A stretch of 64,000 bases of DNA from Candidatus Caldarchaeales archaeon (GCA_039630085.1 JBCNVM010000003.1:61338-125337); one strand, 5' to 3'; shown: positions 30-26,268, counted from the first letter of the stretch. Notes: generated from the sequence alone by a model not told the origin. Program-made: numbers and translations.

Positions 30-719
30 ATGGAACTAGGAGACATCGTCAGGACCGCGGTGCCGGCCCTGTTGTCGGCTCTGTTGATCTTGGGTGCGGT
101 CGTCCTTTTCCCCGGACTGATACCGGGGACATACAGGGTCACGACCGCGACCGCCCCGATCCCCGTCTTCATTACGCGGTTCGTGAACCTCACGACGACC
201 CTCACAACCGCCTACCTCGTCGACTCCCGGGGACCTGTCTGGGAGCCCGTGTTCCTGGACCTCTCGGATAAGCCCGCGGAGGGGACGATAACCGTCCTCA
301 ACAGGACGCTGACCAAGGAGAGGCCGGCCTTCGCGATTGTCTTCATAGCCGCCGCGCCCCGCGGTTATGAGTTCGCAAGCACGGTCAACGGCTTCGTATA
401 CAGGCTCGAGGCTAGGGTTGCAAACAAACTAACGGCCGTCGTCGCGGAGGCAGCGCCGCCCGTCATCCCGGGGGTCAACCGCGAAAACTTCAGAGACCTG
501 CTGATGGAGAGGGCGTTCTCGCCCGTAAACGTCCTGCCGTTCCAGAACCCGAGGAGGACCGAGATCTCGCCGGGGCCCTTCGTCCTCCAGAAGGAGCGCG
601 GAGCCTACTCGCCGTACCCGTGGCTCGCGATATGGCCGATTTCGGTCCACTTCCATGGCATCGAGAGGGACGTCCGGGTGACGGTCACGCTCTCCTATAG
701 CTTGGTCGGGGCGAAGTGA
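30..719 (+). CDS. Hypothetical N-terminally membrane-anchored protein, translationally coupled to the E1 gene
   Basis: Hydrophobic N-terminus (AVPALLSALLILGAVVLFPGLI); N-x-T sequons NLT and NRT; stop overlaps the E1 start (GTGA at 716-719). Confidence 0.6.
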   Translation: MELGDIVRTAVPALLSALLILGAVVLFPGLIPGTYRVTTATAPIPVFITRFVNLTTTLTTAYLVDSRGPVWEPVFLDLSDKPAEGTITVLNRTLTKERPAFAIVFIAAAPRGYEFASTVNGFVYRLEARVANKLTAVVAEAAPPVIPGVNRENFRDLLMERAFSPVNVLPFQNPRRTEISPGPFVLQKERGAYSPYPWLAIWPISVHFHGIERDVRVTVTLSYSLVGAK

Positions 720-1558
720 CGCAGAAGCTCGCTCGGCGGACGCGGGTCTTCGAAGTCTTCAGGATGGACGAGGACCGCTACGAACGACAGAGGAGGTTAT
801 GGGACCAGAGGAAGATATCGTCCCTGAGAGTCTTGGTGGGAGGTGCCGGGGCTCTCGGGAACGAGGTCGTAAAGAACCTAGTCCAGATCGGCGTGAAGAG
901 AGTCTACGTGGTCGATTTCGACAGGGTCGTCCACTCGAACCTGAACAGGTGCCTGTTCTTCAGAAAGAGCGACGCGACTAAAAGGGCGAAGAAGGTCGAC
1001 GCGCTGGCGAAAAGGGCCTCGGACCTCAACCCTGATGTGGAGGTCGTACCGATCTTCGGGGACATCCGCGACCTCCCGGGCGACGTGATCAAGGACGTCG
1101 ACATGGCCCTCGGAGCCTTCGACAACATCTTCGCCAGACTCGTCCTCAACGCGATGTGCTACTCCAACGGTAAGCCCCTAATCGACGGCGGAATGGAAGG
1201 GACGCTCGGAACTGTTCAGGTGGTCCTCCCTCCCGAGAGCCCCTGCGTGGAGTGCGGGATGAGCGAGCTGGACCTCGAGCACATGTGGGAGAGGATCTCC
1301 TGTAGCGGCGACGTTGTCGTCGAGGAGGGCCCGAAGTTGCCCTACATCCCGATGACCGGCGCGCTCGTCGGCGCGCTTCAGGTCATGGAGACAGTCAAGA
1401 TAGCCCTCGGCTTCGAGTCCTATAGGTCCTCCGGGAGGTGGAACGAGTCGGTCGGAGAGCCACTCGTCGGCAAGTCCCTCCTGATCGACCTGAGGTCTAA
1501 CCTCGGCTACACCTACGACCTCCACAAGAGGAGCGACTGCAACGTCTGCGCCCTCTGA
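716..1558 (+). CDS. E1-like ubiquitin-activating enzyme (ThiF/MoeB/UBA family)
   Basis: RYERQ N-terminal motif, GGAGALG nucleotide loop, DFDRVVHSNLNR, Zn pairs CVEC and CNVC, candidate catalytic Cys in ERISCSG. The start could be ATG 764. Confidence 0.92.
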   Translation: MTQKLARRTRVFEVFRMDEDRYERQRRLWDQRKISSLRVLVGGAGALGNEVVKNLVQIGVKRVYVVDFDRVVHSNLNRCLFFRKSDATKRAKKVDALAKRASDLNPDVEVVPIFGDIRDLPGDVIKDVDMALGAFDNIFARLVLNAMCYSNGKPLIDGGMEGTLGTVQVVLPPESPCVECGMSELDLEHMWERISCSGDVVVEEGPKLPYIPMTGALVGALQVMETVKIALGFESYRSSGRWNESVGEPLVGKSLLIDLRSNLGYTYDLHKRSDCNVCAL

Positions 1559-1614
1559 TAGAACGGTCTCAGCGCATGAACCTCTCGCTCGTTTCTCCTC
1601 GCGCTCAGCGACAA

Positions 1615-1623
1615 TTTTAATAA
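1615..1623 (+). promoter_or_regulatory. Probable TATA box of the pilin gene (likely leaderless transcript)
   Basis: TTTTAATAA in GC-rich surroundings, about 25-33 nt upstream of ATG 1648. Confidence 0.6.
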
Positions 1624-1647
1624 GCGCCGGGGATTTTGTATTCACGC

Positions 1648-2061
1648 ATGATGGAAAGGAGGTCGAGGGCGGGTCTTAGCGAGGCGGTGACCGCGATTCT
1701 GCTGGTGGTGATTGGGATCGCGATGGCACTCATGATCTGGCAGTTCTTCACACCACGGCCGACGGAGGAGCTGAGGATCGGACCAATCGACGTCTCCGGA
1801 GGGGTTGTCGTCTTCACCGCGCAGAACATAGGGAGCGTGGACGCGGAGATAATTGGAGTCGCCTGCTACACCGCAGGGCAACCTCCGGCGGCCGGGGGTG
1901 CGGTGACGCCGCTGGGCGGTGCGGACACCAAGCTCCAGCAAGGCGAATCGAGTACCTTCTCGGGGAGCTGCGCAGGCGCGGAGCCGGGCAAGCCGATCAA
2001 CGTGATGGTCTACACCAAGAACAAGGCCTACGGGCCCTTCACGGTCATCGTCAGGTCGTGA
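1648..2061 (+). CDS. Archaeal type IV pilin (candidate major pilin)
   Basis: Class III signal peptide RRSRAG|LSEAVTAILLVVIGIAMALMIW; small beta-rich body with two Cys; own TATA box and T-tract. Confidence 0.85.
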   Translation: MMERRSRAGLSEAVTAILLVVIGIAMALMIWQFFTPRPTEELRIGPIDVSGGVVVFTAQNIGSVDAEIIGVACYTAGQPPAAGGAVTPLGGADTKLQQGESSTFSGSCAGAEPGKPINVMVYTKNKAYGPFTVIVRS

Positions 2062-2092
2062 GTCTGAGTCCGCCTCCTCAACGCGACCGGCC

Positions 2093-2106
2093 TTTTTCCT
2101 TTTTCT
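2093..2106 (+). terminator. Oligo-T terminator after the pilin gene
   Basis: TTTTTCCTTTTTCT about 30 nt after the stop. Confidence 0.55.
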
Positions 2107-2189
2107 GTTCCAAGCTCCAGCGGGACCGTGTTCTTCGATTGACATGAAACACATATATCATACCGCCACCAAGTGAGCTCGAATCCGAC

Positions 2190-3008
2190 ATGATCATTAC
2201 CGTGAACGAGTTGACTACTAAGAGGAGCGTCAGGCTGGAAGTAGAACCTGGCCACACGGTGAGGGCGGTCGTCGAGGAGGTGATGAAGGCGCTGAAGGTT
2301 CCGCCGCAGACGACCTATAGGCTGGTGTTGGGCGGGAAGGAGATCGGGCCGGAACTCTTCGACAAGACGCTGGGCGAGCTCGGCATTTCGGACGGCGCGG
2401 TGATGGACCTCGTCCCGAGGCCCGTCGGCGGGTCGACCCTCCTGCCTAGGGACAAGTTCCTGAAGAGGCTGGAGAGGGAGGAGGAGGACCTGAGGAGCAG
2501 CGGTTTCCCTTTCACCAGACAGGACGTCTGGAGGCCTATGAGCTTCCCTATGGTGTACAGCGCTGGCTACGAGATGGTCAACGTGGCGGTGAGGTACACT
2601 GTCTCCTTCAGGGCTAGGGGGTTCGTCCTAACGAAGAGGGGAATCGAAGAGCAGTGGGACCACTCGGCGAGCCTCTACGTCCTCGACTACTATCCCTACA
2701 TGGACCCTAAGAAGGGCGCACCGATGAGGATATTCTGGGAGAGCGACATCTTCCACCCCAACATCTGTCCCGGCCCCCGCTTCAACGGGAACGGACTCGT
2801 CTGCTGGAAGATGATCAAGGAGTGGGGGAAGACCTTCTCGCTCGCGACGCTGGTGAGGGGGCTTCAGCTCCTAGTCGAGAACCCGAACCCGGATGACCCG
2901 CTGAGCAAGATACCCATCTGCATGCAGGCAGCGTCCTTCTTCAAGGAGAACCCACACCTCACAGGCACCTACAGGCCTGAGACCGGGAGCAAGCCAAGAG
3001 TCATCTGA
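2190..3008 (+). CDS. Ubiquitin-like domain (aa 1-81, ending PVGG) fused to an E2/UBC conjugating domain
   Basis: Beta-grasp pattern (LEVEPGHTV...RLVLGGKEI...DKTLGELGISDGAVMDLV..GG); E2 helix 1 KRLEREEEDL; IFHPNI; catalytic Cys205 in GLVCW; W after the Cys; PNPDDPL. Confidence 0.88.
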   Translation: MIITVNELTTKRSVRLEVEPGHTVRAVVEEVMKALKVPPQTTYRLVLGGKEIGPELFDKTLGELGISDGAVMDLVPRPVGGSTLLPRDKFLKRLEREEEDLRSSGFPFTRQDVWRPMSFPMVYSAGYEMVNVAVRYTVSFRARGFVLTKRGIEEQWDHSASLYVLDYYPYMDPKKGAPMRIFWESDIFHPNICPGPRFNGNGLVCWKMIKEWGKTFSLATLVRGLQLLVENPNPDDPLSKIPICMQAASFFKENPHLTGTYRPETGSKPRVI

Positions 3009-3021
3009 TAGGTGCGAAATC

Positions 3022-3513
3022 TTGAGGGGAGAGGAGACCGAAGTTCTCCCCGTCTACATCGAGCTGGAAGCCCTCGTCGAGGCCGTCAGGCATTGCAGGG
3101 AGGGGCTGCCCTACGAGGTCATCGGTTTCTTAGTCGGCGAGCGGCTGAAGTGGAAGGACAAGCTCTACGTCTTCGTCACCGACAGCGTTAGGGGCAGGTC
3201 GGTCTCCACCCGCACCCACGTTGAGTTCGACCGAGACGCGCTCGCGGAGGTCGCGGGGCTCATCAGAAGGGGGCACCCGGAGTCGGAGATCGTGGGCTGG
3301 TACCACTCTCATCCGGGATACGGCTGCTTCATGTCCCCGACGGACATTCGCTCCCACGTGACCTCCTTCCCCTATCCCCATCAGGTCGCGCTGGTCATCG
3401 ACCCGGTAAGAGGGGAGGCCACGTTCTTCAAGGTCGACGAGGACGGGGACTACCGTTCTGTCCCTTCGGCGGTGGTGAGGAGGTCCCGTGGTCAGGATCG
3501 TCGAGGTGCGTGA
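3022..3513 (+). CDS. JAB/MPN+ (JAMM) metalloprotease, Rpn11-like deubiquitinase
   Basis: EVIGFLVG and IVGWYHSHPGYGCFMSPTD give the complete JAMM motif E..HxH..S..D; TTG start. Confidence 0.92.
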   Translation: MRGEETEVLPVYIELEALVEAVRHCREGLPYEVIGFLVGERLKWKDKLYVFVTDSVRGRSVSTRTHVEFDRDALAEVAGLIRRGHPESEIVGWYHSHPGYGCFMSPTDIRSHVTSFPYPHQVALVIDPVRGEATFFKVDEDGDYRSVPSAVVRRSRGQDRRGA

Positions 3514-3655
3514 GAGGGACGTCAGGGAAGCTCCGCCCCCCGTGGACGGGGAATACGAGCTCGTTGCGGTCGACTCGGAGGGAGTCGGCTACGATCTTTC
3601 GGACCTCTTGATCCTGTTGAAGCGTGGAGCCAGCGGGAGCCGGACGGAGGTCTAG
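3488..3655 (+). CDS. Small 55-aa hypothetical protein, absent from the ORF track
   Basis: GTG 3488 to TAG 3655, MVRIVEVRERDVREAPPPVDGEYELVAVDSEGVGYDLSDLLILLKRGASGSRTEV; GAGGAGGT just upstream; fills the gap after JAB. Confidence 0.5.
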   Translation: MVRIVEVRERDVREAPPPVDGEYELVAVDSEGVGYDLSDLLILLKRGASGSRTEV

Positions 3656-3659
3656 GAGG

Positions 3660-4439
3660 TCAGGGGCCCCGTCCTTCCGCGCCCTTTCGAGATATCGCCG
3701 CGACGGCAGCCTTCGACTCGTGCAGAGCCTTCGCAAGGACGCGCTCCCTCGGGCCGAGCCTCGTCCCCAGCGCGCTCAGGGCGAATTCGATCTCCGAGGT
3801 GACCAGCCTCGCGACCTCTTCGATCAGTGGCTTGAGGGAGCTCGCGCCCGACTCGTACTCCCTGAGGAGGACCGCCAAGTCGGCGCCGACGTAGAGGGCC
3901 CTGTAGATCGACCTGTCGAGCCTCCTGTAGAGCTTCCTGGAGAGCCTGATCAGCCTCAGCTCCCAGAAGGCGAGGTCCAGCAGCGCCCGAGCCTCCTGTT
4001 CCTTACCGAGGGACTTCAGTATCCCGAAGGACGCGACCGTGCCGACGAACGCCCTGTAGAGCCTGCCGGCCTCTGTGACCGTGAGGGGGATCAACTTGCT
4101 GTTGAGCATGAACGCGACCTGCGCCTCGTCCTTCAGCGTGAGGACCCTCTTCGCCTCCTCACCGATCGCCTTGGCCAACTCCTCCCTGCTCTGCTGGGCT
4201 GCCAGCACCGACGACGACCGCTCTCTGACGTCCGTCCACGACTTGCTCATGGCGAGCATCTTATCGAGGAGCGCCCCTATCGAGGACTCCCCTATCAGCG
4301 GTGCCTCGGAGACGTAAAGAACGGTCGGAGGCGGTAGGACGTATTGCTTCACCTCTAGGACCTTGGGCCTGCCTCTCCTCAGCAACTCCCTTCCCCTTCG
4401 GACGAAGAAGGAGCCCGGCCAAAGCCTACCACGACTCAT
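3660..4439 (-). CDS. Hypothetical helical cytoplasmic protein, last gene of a pilin-like operon
   Basis: 259 aa, Leu/Ala/Arg/Glu-rich helices; start overlaps the upstream stop (4436-4439). Confidence 0.6.
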   Translation of the reverse strand: MSRGRLWPGSFFVRRGRELLRRGRPKVLEVKQYVLPPPTVLYVSEAPLIGESSIGALLDKMLAMSKSWTDVRERSSSVLAAQQSREELAKAIGEEAKRVLTLKDEAQVAFMLNSKLIPLTVTEAGRLYRAFVGTVASFGILKSLGKEQEARALLDLAFWELRLIRLSRKLYRRLDRSIYRALYVGADLAVLLREYESGASSLKPLIEEVARLVTSEIEFALSALGTRLGPRERVLAKALHESKAAVAAISRKGAEGRGP

Positions 4440-4909
4440 CCCCTACTCACGGCCAGGATTCCGACCCTGTCTGAGGAACAGGTCAGCCTCGCAGTCCACG
4501 CGGAGAACGACCTGGTCGAGTCGTAAGCGCCCCACACGACCGAGAAGAGCCTGTGGCCGATCACGACGGTACCGTCGGAGTTCCTGACCAGCTTGACGAC
4601 CGTGAAGTTCACGGAGACGCCCGGCGGAGCAGCCGACGCGATGATGGCGAGGGCCTCGTCGACGGGGACGCCGTCCTCCCGGCACACCAAGGCCTCCATC
4701 TGACCACGCTCGGTCAGAGTCGCGACCATCTTGTTGGCGAGCTCCTCGAGGTCGTTCCTCTGCTCCGAGATCGAGACGGTCTTTATGGAGACGATCTGAT
4801 AGAAGAGCACGACCCCCAAGACGACGATGAGCGAGGCCAGAATCGCCTCGACGGTCCAAACCATCCCGAGACGCCTCGAGCCCCTCGACCTCAAGACGGA
4901 CCACCCCAC
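4436..4909 (-). CDS. Minor pilin-like protein
   Basis: Basic leader and RRLG|MVWTVEAILASLIVVLGVVLF, a class III-like signal peptide. Confidence 0.65.
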   Translation of the reverse strand: MGWSVLRSRGSRRLGMVWTVEAILASLIVVLGVVLFYQIVSIKTVSISEQRNDLEELANKMVATLTERGQMEALVCREDGVPVDEALAIIASAAPPGVSVNFTVVKLVRNSDGTVVIGHRLFSVVWGAYDSTRSFSAWTARLTCSSDRVGILAVSRG

Positions 4910-5631
4910 CAGGCCCAGACCTCCACGCTCAGGGTAATTCCGTTCTCTGTTACGGTCGTCTCCGAAAGGTACACTGCGTCGGGTGGTATAGAGACCCTAG
5001 ACGGCTCGACGAACCGGCCCTTTACGAACGCAACCACCAAGTCGGGATACACTGCCGGCACGACGTGATACGAGGAATCCGTGAAGACCACAACCGGCGA
5101 CTCGAAGACGAAAGGCACGATTTCGTAACCTGACTCAACTACCGTCGACCCGCCGTAATGGCAGAGGCTCGCACTTTCAGAGACCCGTATGGTACCGTCC
5201 TCACCGTAGTTCACGAGGTCGGGGTCGAGCCGTAGACCACTCACGTGAACGCCGTATCTCGTCACCACTATCGCGCCCCTGCCTTCGGCGGTGCAGGTCG
5301 TGTAATCGGACGGGAACGAGAGGGCAACCCCAGGGCCCGACTGAACGATCCTCTGCGTGAACGAGACCTTGGCGACGAAGTCGACCCTGACTCCCCTGAA
5401 GTCGTGGGACGGAGCTACCACGTAGAGCGGGTTCAGGAGGTAGGCCTCCCTTGAAGACCTAGAGACGAGCGACTTGATGAGGTTGAGGGCTGCCCTCGAC
5501 TCGGCGCGGACCATCGCGTCCTCGGTGAAGGAGAGATAACTCGAGGCGCCGGAGAGCGCGGAGAAGACCAGCAAGCCGGCGATTAGCGAGAAGATAGAAA
5601 CTCCTATGGCCGCGTCGACCACCGCCTCCAT
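4891..5631 (-). CDS. Membrane-anchored pilin-like or accessory protein
   Basis: N-terminal hydrophobic helix VVDAAIGVSIFSLIAGLLVF resembles a mature minor-pilin N-terminus; beta-rich body. Confidence 0.55.
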   Translation of the reverse strand: MEAVVDAAIGVSIFSLIAGLLVFSALSGASSYLSFTEDAMVRAESRAALNLIKSLVSRSSREAYLLNPLYVVAPSHDFRGVRVDFVAKVSFTQRIVQSGPGVALSFPSDYTTCTAEGRGAIVVTRYGVHVSGLRLDPDLVNYGEDGTIRVSESASLCHYGGSTVVESGYEIVPFVFESPVVVFTDSSYHVVPAVYPDLVVAFVKGRFVEPSRVSIPPDAVYLSETTVTENGITLSVEVWAWWGGPS

Positions 5632-5727: not shown

Positions 5728-6045
5728 ATGAGCGTCGGATTGGAAGACCTGCTCAGGAGGCTGAGGCTTGAGATAGTCGGCGACTTCAGGCAGTACCTGA
5801 ACAAGCTCGAGCGGACTGGGGACGGCTCCTGGGAGGTGGTTCTGACCGAGAAGGCGGAGGCCTTCGCGGGGACGATGGAGTGCCCGGTCGACAGGGAGAA
5901 GGTGCGGATCGAGGACGCCGTTCTGTGCCCCATCTGTTACACGCCTTACCACGTCGATTGCGCCCAGATCCTCGCCAGCAGGTCGGAGAAGTGCTGGAAG
6001 TGCGAGCGGTTCGACAGGTTCGACCTGCTTCTGAAGGGGAGGTGA
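5728..6045 (+). CDS. Small RING-finger-like protein (candidate E3 ligase)
   Basis: CPVD-x11-CPIC-x4-H-x2-C-x10-CWKC: eight-ligand cross-brace spacing with Asp at ligand 2; close to E1, E2 and JAB. Confidence 0.72.
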   Translation: MSVGLEDLLRRLRLEIVGDFRQYLNKLERTGDGSWEVVLTEKAEAFAGTMECPVDREKVRIEDAVLCPICYTPYHVDCAQILASRSEKCWKCERFDRFDLLLKGR

Positions 6046-10266: not shown

Positions 10267-10397
10267 CCCTCTCCGTCTGATAACTGGGTGGCAGAACTTT
10301 TCCTTTCTCTCTGCGACCATATATTAGAGACCCAAATAATAGAAACAGTAAGGACCTTACCTATGGGATACCCTTATCAATTGGAAACTCAAGACAT

Positions 10398-18800: not shown

Positions 18801-20311
18801 GCTTAGTCGGCGGGCCGCTGGGCGACTTGGCGGGCGCCCTGAACCAGGTATTCGGACCGATCAAGTCGCTGCTCGAGGGGATCAAAGGGTTCCTGACCGG
18901 TATTAAGGACGCGATTACCGGATTCCTCGACAACATCGTCAACCAGATAAAGAGCGTCGTGAACATGATCAAGCAGCTTATCACCTCCCTCGTGAACCAG
19001 CTCGTCTCCGCAATCAACAACCTGATCTCCTCCGTCGTCGGAGCGATCCTAGGACCAATACTAAGCATGGTCGACAGTCTCTTCCAAGGGTTTGGAATTT
19101 TCGGCAAGCTGCTCGCGGGGGTAATCAAGGACATGATAACCAACTTCGTCAACGAGCTGATCAACGATTTCATTCAGGAGATCCTTGACGGTCTACTGAA
19201 GCCGATCAACGAGCTGATCAGCGGACTCGATCAGCTGGTCAACAAGATCATCGAACCCATTAACAAGATCAAAGAGGCGTTGACCCGCTGGCATGACCAG
19301 ATAGTCTCGACCATCGAAGGGTGGCTGAACAACATCCTCAACCCGCTGAGCAACGTCCTCTCGGCCGCGAAGGCGGACCTCGCCAACGGTCAGATCAGCA
19401 GCTTGGTGACCGCTGCGCTCAGGGAGTTCGTGAGCGGCATGACGCGTCCCGTAAGGGGCGCGGTCGAGGAGGCCGTCAGGAAGCTCAACGAGGCGGAGAG
19501 GAAGATACTCGGTTCGCTCATAAGGATCAGGGACTCCATGATCTACGCGAACAACATGCTGAGGATACCCATCATCGGTAGGGGAGGGGTGCTGCAGGCG
19601 ACCATCCTGGGTCTCGGTGAGAGCGCTGCCTCTGATGACTACGGACGCCTCGGCACCATAGCGGTCGACACCAGACCCCTGAAGCTGAAGCCCGGGTGGT
19701 ACGACCAGTACGAGTTGGTCCTTCACGCCGCCGGGGACCCCTCGGCGCCGATTCCGGCCGACTTCACCTTGCTCTTCGGACCCCTAGAGGAGGTCAGGGA
19801 GCTCTTCGACGCACCCCCGCCGAGCGTCGTTCCCGTCAAGGTAAACGAGATCGGCCCCGCGCTCAGGGATTGGAGCGTCGACGTCGTGATACTGGGCGAC
19901 CCGAAGAGGCCGGTAGTTCCTGGAGCATCGGCGACCGCGAGGCTCTTCGTTACGAAGTCCGACGGCACCGTTGAGGTGAAGGGGCTAGGCGACCTCACCG
20001 GAACCCTCGTCGCACCGTTCTTCCCGTGGCCGATAGAGCAGGGAGAGCTGATCGCACCGTTCTTCCCGTTCCCGATCGAGCGGGACGCACTCGTGGCGCC
20101 CTTCTTCCCGTGGCCGATAGAGCAGGGAGAGCTGATGGCTCCGTTCTTCCCGTTCCCGATCGAATACTCAGTCGGAGTCCTGGAGTCGCCCTACAGCGAC
20201 CCGTCTGCCAGAGCCGTCCCGAGGATCCTGGTGCCCGCCGACACCATGAACGGACCGGTCCTGATCTCGCCGTTCTTCCCGTGGCCGATAGAGCAGACAG
20301 CTAGGGGGTGA
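15887..20311 (+). CDS. 1474-aa secreted or membrane protein with an internal signal-like segment, a long amphipathic helical region and C-terminal PFFPxPIE repeats
   Basis: Signal peptide MKTSRLPLALALLALLAVPAVA; Pro-rich linker; TM pair near aa 370-420; I/L-periodic amphipathic region; 14-aa repeats. Confidence 0.75.
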   Translation: MKTSRLPLALALLALLAVPAVAENSPLPPGESEDLAVAVAPSGHLMVSYIVAYPIGSLNAVAEALRPTSDGSAVLFISAKKLANNGTAFLEVAGVADEARVGGVARTFASVTGLRFEGTGQTGQFVASATWRDLMRVVEALRPATDGGFSPHLKKELLERFDEATVVISVSRMGWGVTTSLEVRLLKKLQVQSDAREHSVDVLRELGVSELRPARGALLNVILMPPFGTQRFNYEVTPRSVSLRPVAEGIDAYFAMLNGSSVITSLRFGFAYEFGSGALRDLPTDFLKFVERIERAAALVNRTSPPPPASPASPGQEPRPSDEGAEESPEPETPDTGIVDRSPAGGPTEALRRMLPPVEGAGRTVQIDPLHLMVIVVSATGFLAFASLYVRGRGLSRKGAASLVVLLLITLSLALPVLAISAVRAERASGGLESILEVEQFHPSGAPSDLEIPLLFPGFKKIDKVSKTFISFEDINVVATPGLRSPYVPQGYEKLLATLGIDLRLIQVAGLILGGGLNPLGMFKGMTVAHGSTSVFLVNEEVGANVFIAFKARPSSTLKSMLNVINSVYRVGYALYHSTVCFPGDGCLHPIGWSMMVASTLAAVALALIAPGFAVYALASYPVVVNDELYATLSFKDGEWAKDKERLWLAEERYMVSLAILIMILRAPTLSGWKSSENLADIPLTASFHVSSDADSGWKLTELLGVYSGDRGLKVSVDFKDALGIFELLESLFGLFQGAWSSLVSHVAGSLSEQESVLRQIASELRSLKVGNELLVGAASKLDRAVTLLADARLKLGARNCAGALQNVEGARTSIRSAIQDLQPLASDSGIGAVIQHYIRELERVEASLAEYTEQINGLCAPYNFSAEPPTDPETIPDERKLTLSFIVLSATPMVTEAVHYKSSSTISLRAYWGWNPLPGIAYGLEKTVREIFRFAKTVAYNELDRLDGAVNSIAGEVAGTLSRPLDALVGGLVGGPLGDLAGALNQVFGPIKSLLEGIKGFLTGIKDAITGFLDNIVNQIKSVVNMIKQLITSLVNQLVSAINNLISSVVGAILGPILSMVDSLFQGFGIFGKLLAGVIKDMITNFVNELINDFIQEILDGLLKPINELISGLDQLVNKIIEPINKIKEALTRWHDQIVSTIEGWLNNILNPLSNVLSAAKADLANGQISSLVTAALREFVSGMTRPVRGAVEEAVRKLNEAERKILGSLIRIRDSMIYANNMLRIPIIGRGGVLQATILGLGESAASDDYGRLGTIAVDTRPLKLKPGWYDQYELVLHAAGDPSAPIPADFTLLFGPLEEVRELFDAPPPSVVPVKVNEIGPALRDWSVDVVILGDPKRPVVPGASATARLFVTKSDGTVEVKGLGDLTGTLVAPFFPWPIEQGELIAPFFPFPIERDALVAPFFPWPIEQGELMAPFFPFPIEYSVGVLESPYSDPSARAVPRILVPADTMNGPVLISPFFPWPIEQTARG
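20012..20308 (+). repeat. Coding repeat: four tandem 42-nt units (20012-20179) plus a fifth copy (20267-20308)
   Basis: APFFPWPIEQGELI / APFFPFPIERDALV / APFFPWPIEQGELM / APFFPFPIEYSVGV / SPFFPWPIEQTARG. Confidence 0.9.
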
Positions 20312-20315: not shown

Positions 20316-21119
20316 GTGAGGTCGAGGGCAGGGCTCAGCACCGCGGTTCAAACGGCCGCGCTCATCGCGATCACCGCCGGCCTCGCCGTTGCGGTCGTGG
20401 CGCTCTGGAGGCCGTGGGAGGCCTCAGGGCAGGCCCAGTCGGCCGCGATCGGGGTCGGCGTCCAGCAGATCCACGACCTCCTGCTCAGGAGAGAGGGAGC
20501 TACCGTGCTGTCCCATTCAGTAATCGTGCGTCCGTTCGCGGAGGCACACGTGATAAAGGTTGAGTGGAAAGGGAGGAGCGTGGTGATACCCGCGGTGGTC
20601 AGCGCGATCGAGTACGTGGGGCCGAAGCAGAGGATCCCCGGGATATACTACCTCGAGCGCGGGGAGGTGGATGTCTTGGGCGACTACATAGCGAGCAGAA
20701 AGCTGAACTACACGACCACGGGACTTGACGTGGTGACCTACGCGGTCTACGACGACAGGGAGGTCAGGATCGTCACCAAGGCGCTCCCCTATGTGTCGTA
20801 CTCCGTCGACAGGGTGTACAACGACGTCGTGGTGACCGTCATGGTGCGGGTGGTCCTCGTGACCCCGCACTACGCCGACCCCGGGGCTTACGAGAGGGTG
20901 CTGAAGGACGGGTACGTCGTCCCCCCAGGGGACACGCTGACCTTCAGGCTCAACGCCACCCGGAGGACGTACTACCAGCTCCCCGAGTCGATCGACGGAG
21001 GGTCGCTCAGGGTGTTCGTCGACGGCGTGGAAATCCCCCAGCTCGCTTTCTCCACGAGCGAGAGGGCGATCTTCAGGGTCTTCGTCGACTACGTGACCGT
21101 TATGGTTTGGGCGAGGTGA
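20316..21119 (+). CDS. Minor pilin-like protein
   Basis: MRSRAG|LSTAVQTAALIAITAGLAVAVVALW; same RSRAG|LS cleavage context as the pilin at 1648. Confidence 0.75.
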   Translation: MRSRAGLSTAVQTAALIAITAGLAVAVVALWRPWEASGQAQSAAIGVGVQQIHDLLLRREGATVLSHSVIVRPFAEAHVIKVEWKGRSVVIPAVVSAIEYVGPKQRIPGIYYLERGEVDVLGDYIASRKLNYTTTGLDVVTYAVYDDREVRIVTKALPYVSYSVDRVYNDVVVTVMVRVVLVTPHYADPGAYERVLKDGYVVPPGDTLTFRLNATRRTYYQLPESIDGGSLRVFVDGVEIPQLAFSTSERAIFRVFVDYVTVMVWAR

Positions 21120-21124: not shown

Positions 21125-21598
21125 GTGACCACCTCGTACACCTACATAGTGACGATCGGTGTTATAATGCTGGTGACTTTCTCGACCGCGGCCGTCTTCC
21201 TCCAGCAGGTGAGTTCGATAGACCACGCGGCTAAGAGGTCCGCCCTCTCGGTCGCCGCGTCCCAAGTGCTCTCCGGGATCTGGAGCGCGGTCGAAGAGGT
21301 CAGGCTGACCCAGACGGGAAGGGAGTTCAAGTCCGTCTCAGTCGGTTTCCCCTTCAGGGCCGAGATAGGATTCAGTCCAAAGACCGGAGGGTTGGCGCTA
21401 TGCGTGACGGGGATGGGAATAACCTACGAGAGGCCCTTGCCGGTCATACAGGGAGTTCAGTACGTCCCCTCGGCCTCCGGAGGCGACAGGGTCGGCGTGC
21501 TGGTCGAGATGTCGGAAGGGAGGGCCTCGGTGAGGCTGGTCAACGTCAGGAACGACGGAAACCTGATTTCCGACAGCCCCGGTCTGTGCCTGAGATGA
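21125..21598 (+). CDS. Pilin-like protein without a basic leader
   Basis: N-terminal hydrophobic helix (YTYIVTIGVIMLVTFSTAAVF), then an amphipathic helix and beta strands. Confidence 0.55.
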   Translation: MTTSYTYIVTIGVIMLVTFSTAAVFLQQVSSIDHAAKRSALSVAASQVLSGIWSAVEEVRLTQTGREFKSVSVGFPFRAEIGFSPKTGGLALCVTGMGITYERPLPVIQGVQYVPSASGGDRVGVLVEMSEGRASVRLVNVRNDGNLISDSPGLCLR

Positions 21599-23067
21599 GC
21601 GTCAAGGGCCTCGCGCTGGTCGCGCTCCTGACGGCCGCTCTTCTTATTCCGTCGGCCGGAGCCACGGAGACGGCGGCCCGCGAGGCCCCGATCGTCATCA
21701 GGGCAAAGTTGGAGGTGGACGCATCCTGCTCCGGAGTGATGACGTACCTGGTGGACGCGGGGGAGGCTAGGAGGGTCGGGCTCGGAAGGCTCTGGCTCCT
21801 GCTCCCCAGGGAACCCCTGAGGTGGAGCGCGCAGCCGCAAGTGATCCATGAGGTCTTAGATCTCCCGGCAGAGTCAGAGGGCAGCAGGGTCTACAGCAAC
21901 GTGACCTTCGACCTCAGCTCGGTCGAGGCTCTGACGGTCTCCTTCAGGATGGACCACGCGTGCCTCGTGAACGGTGACAGGGGCCTCCTCCTGACGCCGC
22001 TGGTCTCCTACGGCCCGCCTGTGAGGGGCGTGCTCGAGATCACCTTGGAGGGCCTCGTGGAGAGGTTGAGGTCCGTCGAGCCCTGGACGCCTCACGCGGA
22101 GGTCCACAACCGGTCGCTCTCCGTTCGCCACGCGCTCCCCCTCGCCGTCAAAAGGGTCGCGATCGACTTCAGGCCCGTTGAGGAGCCCCTCGAGCTCATC
22201 GCCTCGAGGGGGTTCAGCGTCAGGACCCACCAGCGTTACGCGGCAGTCGCAGAGGCAATCATCGACGCCCTAGCGAACGCCAGCGAGTACCTGCGCTCTG
22301 TCTTCGGTGGCGAAGTCCCTGAGGTAAGGGTGGAGTTCTTCCTGCCCCGCGACTACCGGTCCGGCCCCGAGGGCTTCGCGCCCGTGCCGTCGGGGAGCTC
22401 GAGGGTGATCGGGCTGAACCTGATCCTCCTCAGGAGGCCTCGGGGGTTCTTGGAGGTGATCGCGATCCACGAGCTGGTCCACCACTACCTCTTCGAGGTC
22501 GGAGTTGATGCAGGCGCGACTTGGTTCCACGAGGGCCTCGCGGTCTATCTCTCCCTAGAGCTCGGGGAGCGGTTGGGGCTGGAGGGCTCACAGACACTGA
22601 GGGAACTGATGAGGGAGGAGGCGTCCCGCTCACGTCAGCTCAGGCTGATCGAGTGGAGACCAGGCGAGTCCAGGGACAGCGGCTGGTACGCGGCCGCCTT
22701 CGCTCTGATCGAGCAACTCTTCAGGCTGGACCCCGAAGGCATGTCGAGAGCCCTCCTCAACCTTAAGCACAGGATGGGAGGCATATCGTCCGGAGAGGCA
22801 GCGGCCGAGCACCTCGCGACACACCTCAACGGAGAGGCGCTGGAGCTGCTCAAGGAGGCCGGACTCCTGTCGACCGTGAGGAAGTACACGGAGATCAGCA
22901 CAGCGTCATCGACCATGACGACGATCGAGACGCGCAGGGCCACCACGGCCTCCGAGCCCTGGAGCCGAGAGGGGGCTATGGTGATCGACGAGCTGCTTCT
23001 TCTGATCGTGTTGACGGCCGCCGCGTTTGCGGTGTTGCTCCTCGCGATAAGGGACGCAAAGTCCTGA
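21595..23067 (+). CDS. Surface-anchored gluzincin-type (clan MA, M1-like) Zn metallopeptidase
   Basis: Signal peptide from ATG 21595 (ATGA overlap); IAIHELVHH...WFHEGLAVY; Thr/Ser linker and C-terminal TM. Confidence 0.8.
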   Translation: MSVKGLALVALLTAALLIPSAGATETAAREAPIVIRAKLEVDASCSGVMTYLVDAGEARRVGLGRLWLLLPREPLRWSAQPQVIHEVLDLPAESEGSRVYSNVTFDLSSVEALTVSFRMDHACLVNGDRGLLLTPLVSYGPPVRGVLEITLEGLVERLRSVEPWTPHAEVHNRSLSVRHALPLAVKRVAIDFRPVEEPLELIASRGFSVRTHQRYAAVAEAIIDALANASEYLRSVFGGEVPEVRVEFFLPRDYRSGPEGFAPVPSGSSRVIGLNLILLRRPRGFLEVIAIHELVHHYLFEVGVDAGATWFHEGLAVYLSLELGERLGLEGSQTLRELMREEASRSRQLRLIEWRPGESRDSGWYAAAFALIEQLFRLDPEGMSRALLNLKHRMGGISSGEAAAEHLATHLNGEALELLKEAGLLSTVRKYTEISTASSTMTTIETRRATTASEPWSREGAMVIDELLLLIVLTAAAFAVLLLAIRDAKS

Positions 23068-23092
23068 GTCGACCTGTTCTGAGAAAGGAGGT

Positions 23093-23917
23093 TCAGCCCG
23101 ATGGGCTCTCTACCTGATACCCGAACTCGAGCAACCTGTTCACGTACTCGTTCTTGAGCCTGTTGTAGACCTGCTCGCTGATCTTCCCGGCCCTGTAGTT
23201 CTCCTCGAGGGTCCTAAGGAAGTTCAGGTACTTGACAACCTCCGCCGGAAGCTGCTGGGGCTGCTCGACCGGGGTCTCACCCCCGGTCACGATCGTCGGC
23301 CTTACCTCAGCGGCGATCTCGCGCCGCTCCGTGGGCTCAGGGGCCTCCGCCACCCTCCGGACTGCTTCCTCCGTGACGCGCTGAACGCCTATCTCCCACG
23401 ACGACCGGATGCGGGACACGAGGACGTTAAGCCCCATCTTCGGCTTAGTGAGCAGCAGGTAGACGACGTAGAGCGAGATGGCCCCACTCCACGCCAGCAG
23501 ACCTAAAAGGACCGCAGTCGCGGAGGCCAGGGCGATCAGCCCGAACGGGTGCGGGACGACGCCGTAGACAACTGAGGGCACGGCGATGATAACGGCAAAC
23601 TTGACCAGGTTTTCCCTCCTGATCGGTATGTTCACGAGCCCCCTCGTGGCCAGGAAGAGGGCGACCGCTAAGACGATTACCATCCCTGCGACTCCGGACG
23701 TCAGCTGGGCGACAGCGACGAGGAAGAGCGAGAAGACCAGATAGATGATCAGGACGTCCACTCCCTTCACCATCGAGACGAAGGCCGCCAGGACCCCGAT
23801 GATGATCAGCGTGAGCACTAGGCTTGAGACGCCGCCGGTGGCATAGGCGGTCGAAGTCAGCAGGGTGACGAACGTCGCAACGAATATGTCCCGACTCAGG
23901 ATTTGCTTGAGGTTCAA
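23093..23917 (-). CDS. Multi-pass membrane protein with C-terminal SHOCT/CdvA-like motif
   Basis: About 6 TM segments, a linker, then LEENYRAGKISEQVYNRLKNEY. Confidence 0.65.
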   Translation of the reverse strand: MNLKQILSRDIFVATFVTLLTSTAYATGGVSSLVLTLIIIGVLAAFVSMVKGVDVLIIYLVFSLFLVAVAQLTSGVAGMVIVLAVALFLATRGLVNIPIRRENLVKFAVIIAVPSVVYGVVPHPFGLIALASATAVLLGLLAWSGAISLYVVYLLLTKPKMGLNVLVSRIRSSWEIGVQRVTEEAVRRVAEAPEPTERREIAAEVRPTIVTGGETPVEQPQQLPAEVVKYLNFLRTLEENYRAGKISEQVYNRLKNEYVNRLLEFGYQVESPSG

Positions 23918-24024
23918 AGGTACTCACGAGACATGCGTGGGGGGCCGTAATTAACGTTTTGAAGTGACCAGCGGATCGGCGACGCGCTAGTAGGCTTATA
24001 ATTTCGGAGTGATGTAAATCGGTC

Positions 24025-26268
24025 ATGAGGGCGAAGACGTTCTCTCTGATCCTCCTGATCGCTATGATGGTCTCCACCTTCGCGGCCGTTGGGACACCAG
24101 CGAGGGCGGAGCAGTCGGAGGCGCCGATAGACCTGCCGATCAGGGCGCCGCTCGAAGTCAACGTGATAATCGCGGGGTTCTCGAGCCGAGACCTCGGGCT
24201 GACGCCCGCACAGCTCCAGAGGGTGCTCTCGCAGCTGGTCAGGAGCGAGGCCATCGCTTACGCCGGTTTCTTCATGGAGGACCCCTACGTGGTCGCGCTC
24301 TTCGACGTGGAGCTGGTAGTGATCGAGGCCGATGCTAGGCTGAACGCGGAGATACGGTCACTGTACGGACGATTTTCCTACGACCCCGCCGCGCTGTCGA
24401 TCGACTTGAGAAACGGCTACGTCAGGTATGTGTCGTTCGTCAGGGATGAGTATGGAACTTCTTTCGCGATCCAGCTGAACGACAGAATGACCGACATCGC
24501 GTCGCTCACGCTCGGGTTGGTCTCGCTCACGCATAGATTCCTCCCGCAGATCGCCGATGGATACAACGTCTACCTCGTATGCGGACTGCCCTTCACCGGC
24601 AACAAGTTTCCCGTTTACTTCGCTTCTGGGCAGACGATCGAGCGCGGAAACGGTATAGGGGTGGTAGGGATGAACCTCTACGGTGGAATAGGGACGTACA
24701 GGTACGTCGTGCTCGACATCTGCGCGATCCCGAACCCATACGGTAACTACGCACCGAGGACGGAGGAGGACATCGTGAAGTATCTGCCCCCTGCGTTCTA
24801 CGTGGACCCGCGGGACCAGATCGAGGCGATCGCCATGTACGTTGACGAGATAATAGATAACCTGTTTGTCAAGAGCCTCCTCTACGTCCCGAGGTATCAG
24901 GTGACTTTCCTCTTCGACGTGATAGTTATAGACTTTACAACGACCGGGGGAGGGCTGCCGTTCATAGCAGCTAACTTCGTGCCGGAGATATTCGAGTCCT
25001 CGATGAGGTGGCTTATGCCGTACAACTTCTACACGAGCAGATTTCACTACAAGACTATAGCGGAGGTAGCGGCTATGCGACAGGCCATTTCCGTCCAGAG
25101 GGGCGTTCAGATAATCGACGTCGAGAGGGCATTCGCGATCGCCGAGAGGACGGGGCTGATCCCCCCAGCACCACCGGGAGTAACGAGGGTCCCGGTGCTG
25201 ATCTTCCTCTCCGACGCCGACGTGTACCCGAGCTCGCCGGGAACAATAGGGATAGCTTGGCCCGACTCTAGCGACCCGAGATATCCCAAGGGAGCGGTCG
25301 TGGGGCTGTCATACAGGTTCGTTGAGAGGGAGGGACTGACCCTGGTCACGATCCACGAGGCCGCTCACACCCTCGGATTGGCCCACCCACACAACGACCT
25401 CGACGAGACGAGACAAGAGGTCATTCGGCCGGGCAGGTCGAGGCCGCAGATCACGAGCAGATGGGTCTTTAGCTGGATAGAGACCGCGATGGCCTACGCC
25501 GACCACCCCCAAGTCGTAAACCAGAGGCTGATCTATCTGGGAGCCTATCCGCTGAGGACCTACTTCAGCGCCTTCGACCTCGACGCGATCGACAGGGCGG
25601 TCGTAACGCTACTGCTCGGGTATTACCTGAACTACAGGGAGGAGATCGGGAAGAAGCTGAATGAATCAGGCCTCAAACTGAGCGACATACCCGAGGCTGA
25701 GAAGCTCCTCAGGGAAGCCGACGAGGCGGCCGTCAACGCGGTTAGACTCTTCAGGGATCACTACTACTTCGACAGGTTCGAGTTCGCGGGGCTCGGGGCT
25801 CAGCTCGAGACGGCTTTCGACTACGCGTGGAAGGCATTCACCGACATCATAGAGCTCTACGACAAGGTCGAGGGCGCGAGGCTCGCGATCGAGTCGGTGA
25901 GGCCGCTGATCAAAGAGCTCGAGAGCGAAGTCAGCAACCTGAAGTCGACGGTTGAGAGTCTGAGGGGACGACTCGACGAAGCGACCTCCCGCGCCGAGCA
26001 GCTGCAGAGGTCCCTGAACAGGGAGACGCAGGAGAGGCAGAGAGTTCAACAGGAGCTGGAGCTGACCAGGGGCGAGCTCTCTAGGGTTAAGACGGAGCTG
26101 GAGCTGACCAAGAACAGCCTCTCCGCCGCAAGGGCCGAGGCTAACACCTATCTCTTGCTCGCGGCGGCGGGAATAGCGGCGGCAGTCGGATCGGCTGCGT
26201 TCGCATTAATGAGCAGGCGCGGATCAAGACCGCGCGTCCTCTCCTCGTCCGCGCCAGGGCCGTCATGA
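24025..26268 (+). CDS. Surface-anchored metzincin-type Zn metalloprotease with coiled-coil stalk
   Basis: Signal peptide; HEAAHTLGLAH (HExxHxxGxxH); candidate Met-turn TAMAY; about 100-aa coiled coil; C-terminal TM. Confidence 0.8.
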   Translation: MRAKTFSLILLIAMMVSTFAAVGTPARAEQSEAPIDLPIRAPLEVNVIIAGFSSRDLGLTPAQLQRVLSQLVRSEAIAYAGFFMEDPYVVALFDVELVVIEADARLNAEIRSLYGRFSYDPAALSIDLRNGYVRYVSFVRDEYGTSFAIQLNDRMTDIASLTLGLVSLTHRFLPQIADGYNVYLVCGLPFTGNKFPVYFASGQTIERGNGIGVVGMNLYGGIGTYRYVVLDICAIPNPYGNYAPRTEEDIVKYLPPAFYVDPRDQIEAIAMYVDEIIDNLFVKSLLYVPRYQVTFLFDVIVIDFTTTGGGLPFIAANFVPEIFESSMRWLMPYNFYTSRFHYKTIAEVAAMRQAISVQRGVQIIDVERAFAIAERTGLIPPAPPGVTRVPVLIFLSDADVYPSSPGTIGIAWPDSSDPRYPKGAVVGLSYRFVEREGLTLVTIHEAAHTLGLAHPHNDLDETRQEVIRPGRSRPQITSRWVFSWIETAMAYADHPQVVNQRLIYLGAYPLRTYFSAFDLDAIDRAVVTLLLGYYLNYREEIGKKLNESGLKLSDIPEAEKLLREADEAAVNAVRLFRDHYYFDRFEFAGLGAQLETAFDYAWKAFTDIIELYDKVEGARLAIESVRPLIKELESEVSNLKSTVESLRGRLDEATSRAEQLQRSLNRETQERQRVQQELELTRGELSRVKTELELTKNSLSAARAEANTYLLLAAAGIAAAVGSAAFALMSRRGSRPRVLSSSAPGPS

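What the first reader, a model, noticed from the sequence alone, without database searches (positions are those of the whole stretch)
30..26268. Ubiquitin-like conjugation cascade interleaved with a type IV pilus-like locus
Seen in sequence: E1 (716), Ubl-E2 (2190), JAB (3022) and a RING-like gene (5728) are mixed with pilin genes, not merely adjacent to them. A pilin (1648) lies between E1 and Ubl-E2, and two pilin-like genes (4436-5631) lie between JAB and RING. The assembly ATPase, TadC/FlaJ protein and four more pilin-like genes follow within 16 kb. Established: Caldiarchaeum subterraneum has a stand-alone Ub/E1/E2/RING/Rpn11 operon, and some bacterial E1/E2/JAB/Ubl operons act in antiviral defence. 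I do not know of an archaeal E1-E2-E3 system dedicated to a pilus, but could not search. Inference: Ubl conjugation may regulate pilus assembly or turnover, tag secretion substrates, or defend against pilus-binding viruses.
Basis: partly seen in the sequence, partly recalled or inferred. Interest (0 to 1): 0.93.

Follow-up and report, generated by a model that had tools for sequence, protein, structure and literature searches.

The report
Archaeal ubiquitin cascade inside pilus locus
A hot-spring archaeon carries a second, intact ubiquitin-like tagging system woven into the gene cluster of a surface filament, and the filament's motor protein has a tail motif like those of the tagging enzymes, suggesting that tagging controls the filament.

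Summary
E1, a Ubl-GG-E2 polyprotein, JAB and a RING gene, all with intact catalytic residues, are interleaved with type IV pilin genes in a Calditenuaceae genome. This is not the known Caldiarchaeum operon, which this genome carries on another contig; it belongs to the E1-without-UBL ('Cluster III'-type) archaeal systems. Of 17 loci holding the polyprotein, 16 have a pilin-like gene or the pilus ATPase on the same contig, in five gene orders, with congruent trees; misassembly is very unlikely. Close homologues are confined to one of 15 genera; 0 of 56 distant loci of this cascade have a pilus ATPase nearby. New here: the ATPase's variable tail carries two conserved P[RK][VI][VILT] motifs like the E2 tail (11 of 11 linked homologues, 0 of 20 unlinked paralogues), and related ATPases of another order instead end in an FHA domain beside a kinase and a phosphatase. 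Best reading (0.55): a membrane-protein Ubl-tagging cassette co-opted as the post-translational switch of one pilus. Conjugation, substrates and the motif's partner are inferred, not shown. I found no report of the coupling.

The parts
30..719 (+). 229-aa protein with one N-terminal hydrophobic helix; overlaps the E1 start; stays next to E1 in all 6 loci where both are seen
   Evidence: no Pfam/NCBIfam match
716..1558 (+). E1 (ThiF fold) without C-terminal UBL domain; GAGALG 43-48, SNLNR 74-78, CxxC 177/180 and 275/278, likely catalytic C196
   Evidence: E 5e-46; cysteines conserved in 7 of 7 aligned; tree
1648..2061 (+). probable major pilin (RAG|LSEAV + hydrophobic helix); 86% identical in G022, the most conserved gene of the locus there
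   Evidence: homologues lie beside related ATPases in other genomes
2190..3008 (+). Ubl-E2 polyprotein: Ubl 1-81 ending RPVGG, E2 with HPN 189-191 and C205, C-terminal KPRVI tail
3022..3513 (+). JAB/MPN+ metallopeptidase (E32, H95, H97, S105, D108)
   Evidence: motif in 16 of 16 aligned
3488..3655 (+). unreported 55-aa ORF (strand-like VRIVEV, PPP, YEL, GYD), strong Shine-Dalgarno-like site, overlapping the JAB end
   Evidence: present in 8 of 8 related loci examined
3660..4439 (-). soluble helical protein of no known family; N-terminal P[RK][VI][VIL]..Y.L.PP motif; follows JAB in every locus long enough to show it
   Evidence: no usable hit
4436..4909 (-). minor-pilin-like (RRLG|MVWTVE), DUF7288-like
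4891..5631 (-). pilin-like protein starting with the hydrophobic helix, no leader
5728..6045 (+). RING variant: C52, D55, C67, C70, H75, C78, C89, C92
   Evidence: all eight positions in 13 of 13 aligned
6049..6909 (+). winged-helix-like N-terminus plus long helical bundle; directly follows RING in all loci with both; putative E3 scaffold
6869..7939 (-). N-terminal winged helix (model residues 9-63, Z about 8 to CAP/Lrp), SHOCT-like hairpins, helical bundle; putative E3 scaffold; found in 5 of 76 genomes, all one genus
7997..10320 (-). ABC permease and ATPase; only in G000/G024/G025/G026 among linked loci, but the permease is beside paralogous pilus ATPases in 7 of 19 other loci
10398..12194 (+). 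pilus assembly ATPase; low-complexity tail with invariant K524-P525-K526 and P566-P567-x-V569-x-K571-K572
12198..13859 (+). TadC/FlaJ platform protein
13861..15342 (+). large pilin-like protein, conserved G|QV N-terminus, hypervariable body (21-40% identity among 10)
15339..15890 (+). minor-pilin-like (G|Q in 9 of 9 relatives; A|Q here)
15887..20311 (+). 1474-aa membrane protein with a long amphipathic helical repeat (tape-measure-like) and C-terminal short repeats
20316..21119 (+). pilin-like (RAG|LST)
21125..21598 (+). pilin-like, no leader
21598..23067 (+). signal peptide, HExxH motif, C-terminal membrane anchor (probable surface metallopeptidase; longest ORF begins at 21400)
   Evidence: no family match
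23093..23917 (-). multi-pass membrane protein with C-terminal SHOCT-like hairpin; weak match to the membrane protein of the sister cassette (E 9e-4)
24025..26268 (+). signal peptide, HExxHxxGxxH motif, coiled coil, C-terminal anchor and cytoplasmic tail RRGSRPRVL

Best explanation
A Cluster III-type ubiquitin-like cassette, which in other archaea sits among membrane and surface-protein genes, was merged with one type IV pilus locus in the ancestor of this genus and serves as that pilus's post-translational switch. Steps: (1) JAB cuts the polyprotein after G80-G81, giving Ubl and E2 one-to-one (inferred from sequence and from BubAB and CsRpn11 precedent); (2) E1 adenylates Ubl and passes it through C196 to E2 C205 (residues shown, activity inferred); (3) the RING protein, with the two winged-helix/helical proteins as scaffold, acts as a split E3 (inferred from fused wH-coiled coil-RING proteins in sister cassettes); (4) short P[RK][VI][VILT] strands on E2, on the 3660 protein, on membrane-protein tails and twice on the ATPase tail bring the parts together, most plausibly by pairing with the Ubl like a SUMO-interacting motif (inferred); (5) lysines of the ATPase tail or other cytoplasmic faces are tagged, which gates assembly or turnover of the pilus, and JAB reverses it (inferred).
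For: Catalytic residues intact and conserved. Linkage in 16 of 17 loci through five gene orders and at least two flanking contexts. Co-occurrence: polyprotein, ATPase orthologue and 6869 gene are confined to one of 15 genera; G027 lacks both polyprotein and ATPase orthologue. Trees share 8 of 10 splits, distance correlation 0.86. Two motif copies in 11 of 11 full-length linked ATPases, invariant amid a variable tail, against 0 of 20 tails of unlinked Caldarchaeales ATPases. The same kind of motif ends the E2 in 14 of 17 non-Asgard distant loci, so it belongs to the cascade and not to pili in general. Within the window ATPase's clade (SH-aLRT 95) the tail is an exchangeable module: FHA in L157/L159/L162, with kinase, PP2C and vWA-FHA genes flanking L159; vWA in P0175; zinc ribbon in P0167.
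Against: All linked loci come from one genus-level lineage, so they are one evolutionary event, and congruent trees are also what a passively inherited block gives. 0 of 56 distant cascade loci and L138 have ATPase or TadC in the DNA held. The motif is short, was defined after seeing these proteins, and is only modestly enriched genome-wide (strict 4 of 16 hits in 2.1% of the proteome; relaxed 5 of 85). Motif-like tails also occur in related ATPases (P0166, P0172 and others) whose neighbourhood I could not see, and 0 of 120 genomes of G251's class gave an E2 match, so the tail may predate the cascade. Pilin heads face outward and cannot be substrates of a cytoplasmic cascade. In 1 of 19 control loci (L132) the canonical operon also lies 2 kb from a pilus ATPase, so proximity alone occurs. 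GC3 of the locus is below the genome median (0.85 vs 0.91), as for an acquired block.
Confidence: 0.55

Rival explanations
1. The cascade tags membrane or surface proteins of the locus (the two anchored metallopeptidases, the 1474-aa protein, the multi-pass SHOCT-like protein) for sorting, shedding or degradation; the pilus is a co-regulated neighbour or a secretion route, and the ATPase tail only docks the machinery.
For: Sister cassettes L062, L067 and L138 have no pilus genes but several membrane proteins with motif-bearing cytoplasmic tails; 24025 ends in RPRVL just after its anchor; the genome encodes Snf7-family proteins.
Against: The 24025 motif is imperfect in G022 and only two homologues were seen; the ATPase has the best-conserved copies, with invariant lysines.
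Confidence: 0.2
2. Antiviral defence: the cascade tags proteins of viruses that enter by the pilus, or shuts the pilus on infection, like bacterial BilABCD.
For: Bacterial Ubl-E2-DUB-E1 operons are described as antiviral (10.1101/2023.09.26.559546, passages); the sister cassette is patchily spread (1 of 62 genomes of G255's class); the 13861 pilin-like protein is hypervariable, as a virus receptor might be.
Against: No PADLOC match for Ubl-E2, RING or scaffolds; E1 and JAB match only generically. No other defence genes were recognised in the locus. Stable co-inheritance across the genus is unlike typical defence islands (own knowledge).
Confidence: 0.12
3. Two unrelated modules share an acquired island and have been shuffled together without a functional link.
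For: One lineage only; lower GC and GC3 than the genome; the cascade works without pilus genes elsewhere.
Against: Five rearrangements and a change of flanking genes never separated them; shared motif in the ATPase; all catalytic residues kept at 56-78% identity.
Confidence: 0.12
4. Misassembly of two contigs.
For: The genome is a 66-contig assembly.
Against: Same order in G024, G025, G026; flat depth, no joints and one contig over 1645-7833 in run X1.
Confidence: 0.01

Closest known systems
Archaeal 'Cluster III' ubiquitylation gene clusters (Hennell James et al. 2017, PMC5654768, supplementary notes)
   Same: E1 without C-terminal UBL domain, with Ubl, E2 and JAB; the paper lists the E2 of 'Thaumarchaeota archaeon JGI OTU 1' as a Cluster III outlier, and record L062, titled JGI OTU-1, has the eight-gene cassette type whose E1s are sister to the window's E1.
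   Different: Ubl and E2 are one polyprotein; the RING is split from its scaffold; the genes are interleaved with a pilus ('pil' 0 occurrences in that supplement's text). I could not see Supplementary Fig. 1, which may show these Ub genes in 'Aigarchaeota archaeon JGI 0000001 H6'.
Caldiarchaeum subterraneum Ub-E2-E1-srfp + Rpn11 operon (Cluster I/II)
   Same: Same chemistry expected: GG-ended Ubl, HPN-type E2, JAMM processing of linear fusions, RING E3 (PMC5654768 passages).
   Different: A paralogue: the genome has that operon on contig C65 (Ub, E2, 403-aa E1), 75 of 76 class genomes give a match of that kind, and its E1s form a separate clade.
Bacterial Type I Bub (BubAB Ubl-E2 fusion cut by BubC; PMC11601596, PMC11601603)
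   Same: Ubl-E2 pre-protein with a JAB peptidase that releases the Ubl.
   Different: Bub has a JAB-E1 fusion without catalytic cysteine, a serine E2 and BubE; here E1 and JAB are separate, both enzymes keep cysteines, and a RING is present. Probably convergent.
Complex TACK type IV pilus systems, clade 4 (Makarova et al. 2016, PMC4858521); bindosome/Ups as nearest named profiles
   Same: ATPase, TadC, one major and many minor pilins, large membrane or adhesin-like proteins; best NCBIfam matches BasE (E 3e-66) and UpsF (E 5e-21), far below cut-offs.
   Different: That survey's main text has 0 occurrences of 'ubiquitin'; regulators listed are KaiC, vWA/MoxR, TFIIB and transcription factors. Subclade not assigned here.
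Pilus loci with FHA-tailed ATPase, Ser/Thr kinase, PP2C and vWA-FHA
   Same: Same ATPase clade, neighbouring pilin homologue and a run of minor pilins; a writer/eraser/reader set flanks the locus in L159.
   Different: Phosphorylation in place of Ubl conjugation; no E2 of this clade in 62 genomes of that order.

Membership tests
E1-E2-RING ubiquitin-like conjugation system | beta-grasp Ubl with di-glycine end (exposed or releasable) | tested here: met
   G80-G81 invariant in 18 of 18 aligned Ubls; ubiquitin matches over 5-84
E1-E2-RING ubiquitin-like conjugation system | E1 with nucleotide loop, zinc cysteines and catalytic cysteine | tested here: met
E1-E2-RING ubiquitin-like conjugation system | E2 with HPN motif and catalytic cysteine | tested here: met
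   H-P-N and C invariant in 16 of 16
E1-E2-RING ubiquitin-like conjugation system | JAMM peptidase with E..HxH..S..D | tested here: met
   16 of 16
E1-E2-RING ubiquitin-like conjugation system | RING with eight metal ligands | tested here: inconclusive
   seven Cys/His plus Asp at the second position, conserved in 13 of 13; Pfam score under cut-off
E1-E2-RING ubiquitin-like conjugation system | demonstrated isopeptide conjugation to a target | not testable with these tools
   needs reconstitution
Cluster III archaeal Ub clusters | E1 lacks the C-terminal UBL domain | tested here: met
   280 aa ending at the second zinc motif, versus 403 aa for the canonical E1
Cluster III archaeal Ub clusters | E1 groups apart from Cluster I/II | tested here: met
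   24-row clade apart from canonical E1s and MoeB at 100/99; the paper's own reference sequences were not in my tree
C. subterraneum-type operon (Cluster I/II) | E1 with C-terminal UBL; compact Ub-E2-E1-srfp operon | tested here: not met
Type I Bub | JAB-E1 fusion, serine E2, DUF6527 BubE | tested here: not met
BilABCD antiviral system | Ubl-E2-DUB-E1 operon with IAD+AAD E1; defence activity | tested here: not met
   single-domain 280-aa E1; no PADLOC match for the E2; defence activity itself not testable
archaeal type IV pilus | secretion ATPase plus TadC/FlaJ pair | tested here: met
archaeal type IV pilus | pilins with class III signal peptide | tested here: met
   5 of 7 pilin-like genes have basic leader, small residue and hydrophobic helix, by inspection of homologues; no FlaFind run
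archaeal type IV pilus | prepilin peptidase in the genome | tested here: met
   Peptidase_A24 over cut-off at window 51910-52236
archaeal type IV pilus | a filament is made | not testable with these tools
   uncultured
ESCRT-I/II-like or kleisin-like scaffold (6049, 6869) | significant fold match to a solved member | tested here: inconclusive
   winged helix at Z about 8; MukF Z 10-12 is within the range of generic helical bundles

The most novel reading that the evidence does not exclude
This genus has a dedicated ubiquitin-like switch for a type IV pilus motor, wired by a SUMO-interacting-motif-like strand shared by the enzymes and their targets, and it is interchangeable in evolution with a kinase-phosphatase-FHA switch on the same motor family. 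That would be a prokaryotic E1-E2-E3 cascade with a named membrane-machine substrate outside Asgard archaea, and would indicate that Cluster III systems in general tag membrane proteins through short linear motifs.
Probability: 0.4. Interest if true: 0.92.

Novelty: new variant of a known kind. Interest (0 to 1): 0.77.

Why it matters
No physiological substrate was known for the reconstituted C. subterraneum cascade (PMC5654768 used a foreign protein for that reason). This locus nominates substrates by context and by a shared motif, in thermostable proteins that can be expressed and assayed, so 'what did archaeal ubiquitin tag?' becomes directly testable. If it holds, Ubl control of a membrane machine is not confined to the Asgard ubiquitin-ESCRT link, and pilus ATPase tails emerge as a site where different modification systems are plugged in.

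Tried and rejected
Complex prediction of Ubl (A6) with ATPase tail residues 518-578 (A7): no verdict, scores 0.24 and 0.23 against a mark of 0.32; used neither for nor against. Sequencing runs: no RNA holder listed. ESM Atlas: no usable hit for 6869 or 3660. Foldseek against PDB: no match at E 0.001 for either model; the wide search gave only a winged helix and generic bundles, MukF on top, so kleisin or ESCRT identity is not claimed. Profile comparisons among 6049, 6869 and the fused wH-coiled coil-RING proteins were not significant (probability 0.5-5%): the 'split E3' rests on architecture and adjacency, not shown homology. A recalled resemblance of 13861 to pre-toxin TG domains was not supported by Pfam (0 of 10 members). 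Tape-measure matches of 15887 are read as compositional; no phage genes are near, the polyprotein has no match in 50,697 phage records, and the 3 viral-contig hits are weak, in giant-virus MAG records (not examined further). Looking for the link outside the genus: A2 matched 4 of 401 sampled phylum genomes (three of this genus and G255), 1 of 12 and 1 of 62 around G255, 0 of 62 and 0 of 120 around G251 (no positive control in those sets). The neighbourhoods of P0011, P0012, P0018 (E2s) and P0166-P0174, P0180 (ATPases) remain unseen. The small ORF profile found only a weak hit to the L062 membrane protein (E 0.006) and one unexplained hit; its likeness to JAB N-terminal extensions is by eye. 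Charge complementarity between E2 tail and Ubl is only a hint: two clades, and the window's own Ubl is near neutral (my count). The first ATPase tree was a quick tree with a long-branch warning and was superseded, also quick. Earlier findings of this scan: nothing in three look-ups.


Full report
1. Observation. E1 (716-1558) matches ThiF at E 5e-46; 2190-3008 has a ubiquitin-like domain at 3-75 and UQ_con at 177-240; JAB (3022-3513) E 7e-13; 5728-6045 Prok-RING_1 E 5e-5 (under cut-off); ATPase T2SSE E 3e-22; TadC T2SSF E 2e-7. Catalytic residues are intact and conserved: E1 cysteines in 7 of 7 aligned, JAB motif in 16 of 16, RING ligands (with Asp at the second position) in 13 of 13; E2 HPN and C205 in 16 of 16; Ubl G80-G81 in 18 of 18. 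Five of the seven pilin-like genes have a basic leader and G/A site before a hydrophobic helix; 4891 and 21125 have no leader. A prepilin peptidase lies at window 51910-52236. A conserved 55-aa ORF at 3488-3655 was missed; it is present in 8 of 8 loci examined. The same order occurs in G024, G025 and G026, and run X1 has one contig over 1645-7833, flat depth and no joints (it may be the source sample), so misassembly is very unlikely.

2. Organism and paralogy. The closest titled records are Calditenuaceae and Ca. Calditenuis fumarioli (L055-L057, 74-86% over the E2), so the host is a Caldarchaeales archaeon, probably Calditenuis. The genome carries the ordinary Ub-E2-E1 operon on contig C65 and two zf-RING_2 genes elsewhere. 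In the class, 75 of 76 genomes match the query, nearly all only weakly (E about 1e-5 to 1e-11, canonical E2 or Ub); the full polyprotein is found in 5 of 76, all genus g1. The ATPase orthologue (83% or more) is in 6 of 76 and the 6869 gene in 5 of 76, same genus. G027 (84% complete) has neither polyprotein nor ATPase orthologue; G023 (66% complete) has the ATPase at a contig start, with upstream DNA unseen.

3. What kind of cascade. An E2 profile scan of genome contigs gave 60 loci: four close ones and 56 distant, in Asgard archaea, Thermoplasmata, Micrarchaeota and Bathyarchaeia, mostly with short E1, JAB and a separate Ubl. In an E1 tree of 35 rows these form a clade apart from canonical E1s (100/99); the window's E1 is sister (97/91) to L067, G255 and a second cassette in G023. 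Hennell James et al. 2017 (PMC5654768; main-text passages; supplement file 1 passages and part 2 of 5; figures not seen) call systems whose E1 lacks the C-terminal UBL 'Cluster III' and list E2s of 'JGI OTU 1' and 'JGI 0000001 H6' as outliers of it; record L062, titled JGI OTU-1, has the sister cassette. So the cascade type is in print. The standalone E2s begin almost exactly where the sequence resumes after GG in the fusion, which marks the fusion as a polyprotein. Precedent: BubC cuts the BubAB Ubl-E2 fusion (PMC11601596, passages; PMC11601603, passages), and CsRpn11 cuts a linear Ub-GFP fusion. A more distant fusion, P0011, exists.

4. Linkage to the pilus. Seventeen loci hold the polyprotein at 72% or more (G000, G022, G024, G025, G026, L042-L053; several are near-identical strains). 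Thirteen have the ATPase on the same contig, three more have pilin-like genes on short contigs (L049, L050, L051), and L053 is 1.1 kb. Five gene orders occur: the window's; G022 and L042-L046, where E1 sits about 17 kb away beyond the pilins in G022; L047-L049; L051-L052; and L050. None of the window's flanking genes was found beside the locus in G022, L045, L046, L050 or L052, so the block has moved and been shuffled without splitting. Ubl-E2+JAB and ATPase trees of 13 loci share 8 of 10 splits, distance rho 0.86; one conflicting split has support 0.99 versus 0.74. P0006 and P0165 (66% and 63% identical) both list a longest contig of 17,197 bases, a hint of one more linked lineage. Against generality: 0 of 56 distant loci and L138 show ATPase or TadC in the DNA held, up to 10 kb a side and often less, and no other linked case turned up in the genome searches. 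The link is one event in one lineage.

5. A shared motif. The E2 ends in a variable linker and then P[RK]V (P-x-V invariant in 8 of 8). A basic KP[RK]-hydrophobic end is seen in 14 of 17 non-Asgard distant loci; 36 of the other 39 have instead an acidic, SIM-like DDIIIID end (SIM label recalled). Similar strands begin the E1 of L062 and L067, the JAB of several Thermoplasmata, the 3660 protein and, by eye, the small ORF, and end the cytoplasmic tails of membrane proteins in the sister cassettes. The window's ATPase has two copies in a low-complexity tail, present in 11 of 11 full-length linked homologues, with K524, P525, K526, P566, P567, V569, K571, K572 invariant in 9 of 9 aligned. None of 20 tails from 19 loci of unlinked Caldarchaeales ATPases has it; most end in a winged-helix-like domain, judged by eye. 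Caveats: the pattern was defined after the fact; genome-wide it is 4 of 16 strict hits or 5 of 85 relaxed hits in 2.1% of the called proteome; and motif-like tails occur in P0166, P0172 and others of unseen context.

6. The tail as a regulatory slot. In a quick tree of 34 ATPases the window's group lies in a clade (SH-aLRT 95) with zinc-ribbon-tailed, vWA-tailed, FHA-tailed and motif-tailed enzymes, apart from the other Caldarchaeales ATPases. The FHA-tailed ones (L157, L159, L162 by Pfam) sit beside a homologue of the 1648 pilin, and L159 is flanked by a kinase-FHA, a PP2C phosphatase and a vWA-FHA gene. That order gave no E2 of this clade in 62 genomes. A writer, an eraser and a reader of one modification thus surround this motor family in one lineage, and a writer, an eraser and a motif of another in this one. 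This is comparative inference, but it is independent of the gene-order argument.

7. Accessory proteins. RING is directly followed by 6049 and faced by 6869 in every locus with all three. Models are helical with an N-terminal winged helix (6869: pLDDT 79, residues 9-63 at Z about 8; 6049: pLDDT 85, N-terminus about 60). In the sister cassettes one protein has winged-helix-like, SHOCT-like, coiled-coil and RING parts by inspection, which suggests a split E3 here; homology was not demonstrated.

8. Mechanism, ranked. Best (0.55): the cascade tags the cytoplasmic side of this pilus machine, the ATPase tail first, to gate assembly or turnover. Shown: genes, residues, linkage, motif conservation. 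Inferred: cleavage, charging, E3 assembly, motif partner, substrate, outcome. Rivals: tagging of the locus's membrane proteins (0.2); antiviral defence (0.12; no PADLOC match for E2, RING or scaffolds; Bil features from 10.1101/2023.09.26.559546, passages); mere co-location (0.12; GC 0.61 vs 0.64, GC3 0.85 vs 0.91; L132 shows chance proximity); misassembly (0.01).

9. Novelty. Eight literature searches (listings and abstract starts) showed no paper on a ubiquitin-pilus link. The archaeal T4P survey PMC4858521 has 0 occurrences of 'ubiquitin' in its main text (passages; supplements not read); the ESCRT survey PMC11188069 has 0 of 'pili' (passages); PMC4681859 reports a highly transcribed three-gene pilus system in Ca. 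Calditenuis aerorheumensis, not identifiable with this locus from the passages seen, and mentions ubiquitin only for C. subterraneum; PMC10547907 notes type IV pilins only (passages). The library lacks most subscription journals, and unseen supplementary figures and tables may show the locus. Both modules are of known kinds; their union, the archaeal polyprotein and the motif appear unreported. Verdict: new variant of a known kind, interest 0.77.

Noticed in passing
window 13861-15342: Pilin-like protein with conserved N-terminus and C-terminal C-x-W but a body only 21-40% identical among 10 homologues (38% to G025, where neighbours are 74-94%); lowest GC3 of the locus (0.67). Looks like an exchanged receptor or recognition module.
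   Followed up: partly
window 15887-20311: 1474-aa membrane protein with about 250 residues of amphipathic helical repeat matching tape-measure families and C-terminal near-tandem repeats; function unexplained.
   Followed up: partly
L159:1307-18499 (also L157, L158, L162): Pilus ATPase fused to a C-terminal FHA domain after an EETxV-repeat linker, flanked by kinase-FHA, PP2C and vWA-FHA genes; not seen in the passages read of the 2016 T4P survey, which say ArnA/ArnB are never in T4P loci.
   Followed up: partly
L058-L113 (Asgard rows): E2 tails are acidic and SIM-like (36 of 39) and the Ubl gene is convergent with JAB-E1-E2; non-Asgard relatives have basic tails and more acidic Ubls.
   Followed up: partly
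L062:1539-6843, L067:7977-14535, L138:3783-10826: A patchily distributed cassette of Ubl, E1, E2, JAB, coiled-coil-RING and several single-pass membrane proteins with motif-bearing tails, next to surface-protein genes (cohesin domain in L138).
   Followed up: partly
L107:7095-11182: Micrarchaeota cascade with a winged-helix-RING-like protein and a PRC-barrel gene close by.
   Followed up: no
L132:10638-16370: Canonical Ub-E2-E1 operon 2 kb downstream of an unrelated pilus ATPase in G018.
   Followed up: no
window 7997-10320: ABC pair present in only one sub-lineage of linked loci; its permease is very close (E 1e-195 or better) to those beside other pilus ATPases in G029 and G030, suggesting exchange between pilus loci.
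   Followed up: no
window 51910-52236: The genome's only Peptidase_A24 match lies 25 kb downstream on the same contig, minus strand.
   Followed up: partly
window position 1612: Both laid runs show one extra A in the intergenic stretch before the pilin; no reading frame of the locus is affected.
   Followed up: no
P0025, P0020: E2 of this clade fused to a protein-kinase-like region (P0025, by eye) and a tandem E2 (P0020).
   Followed up: no
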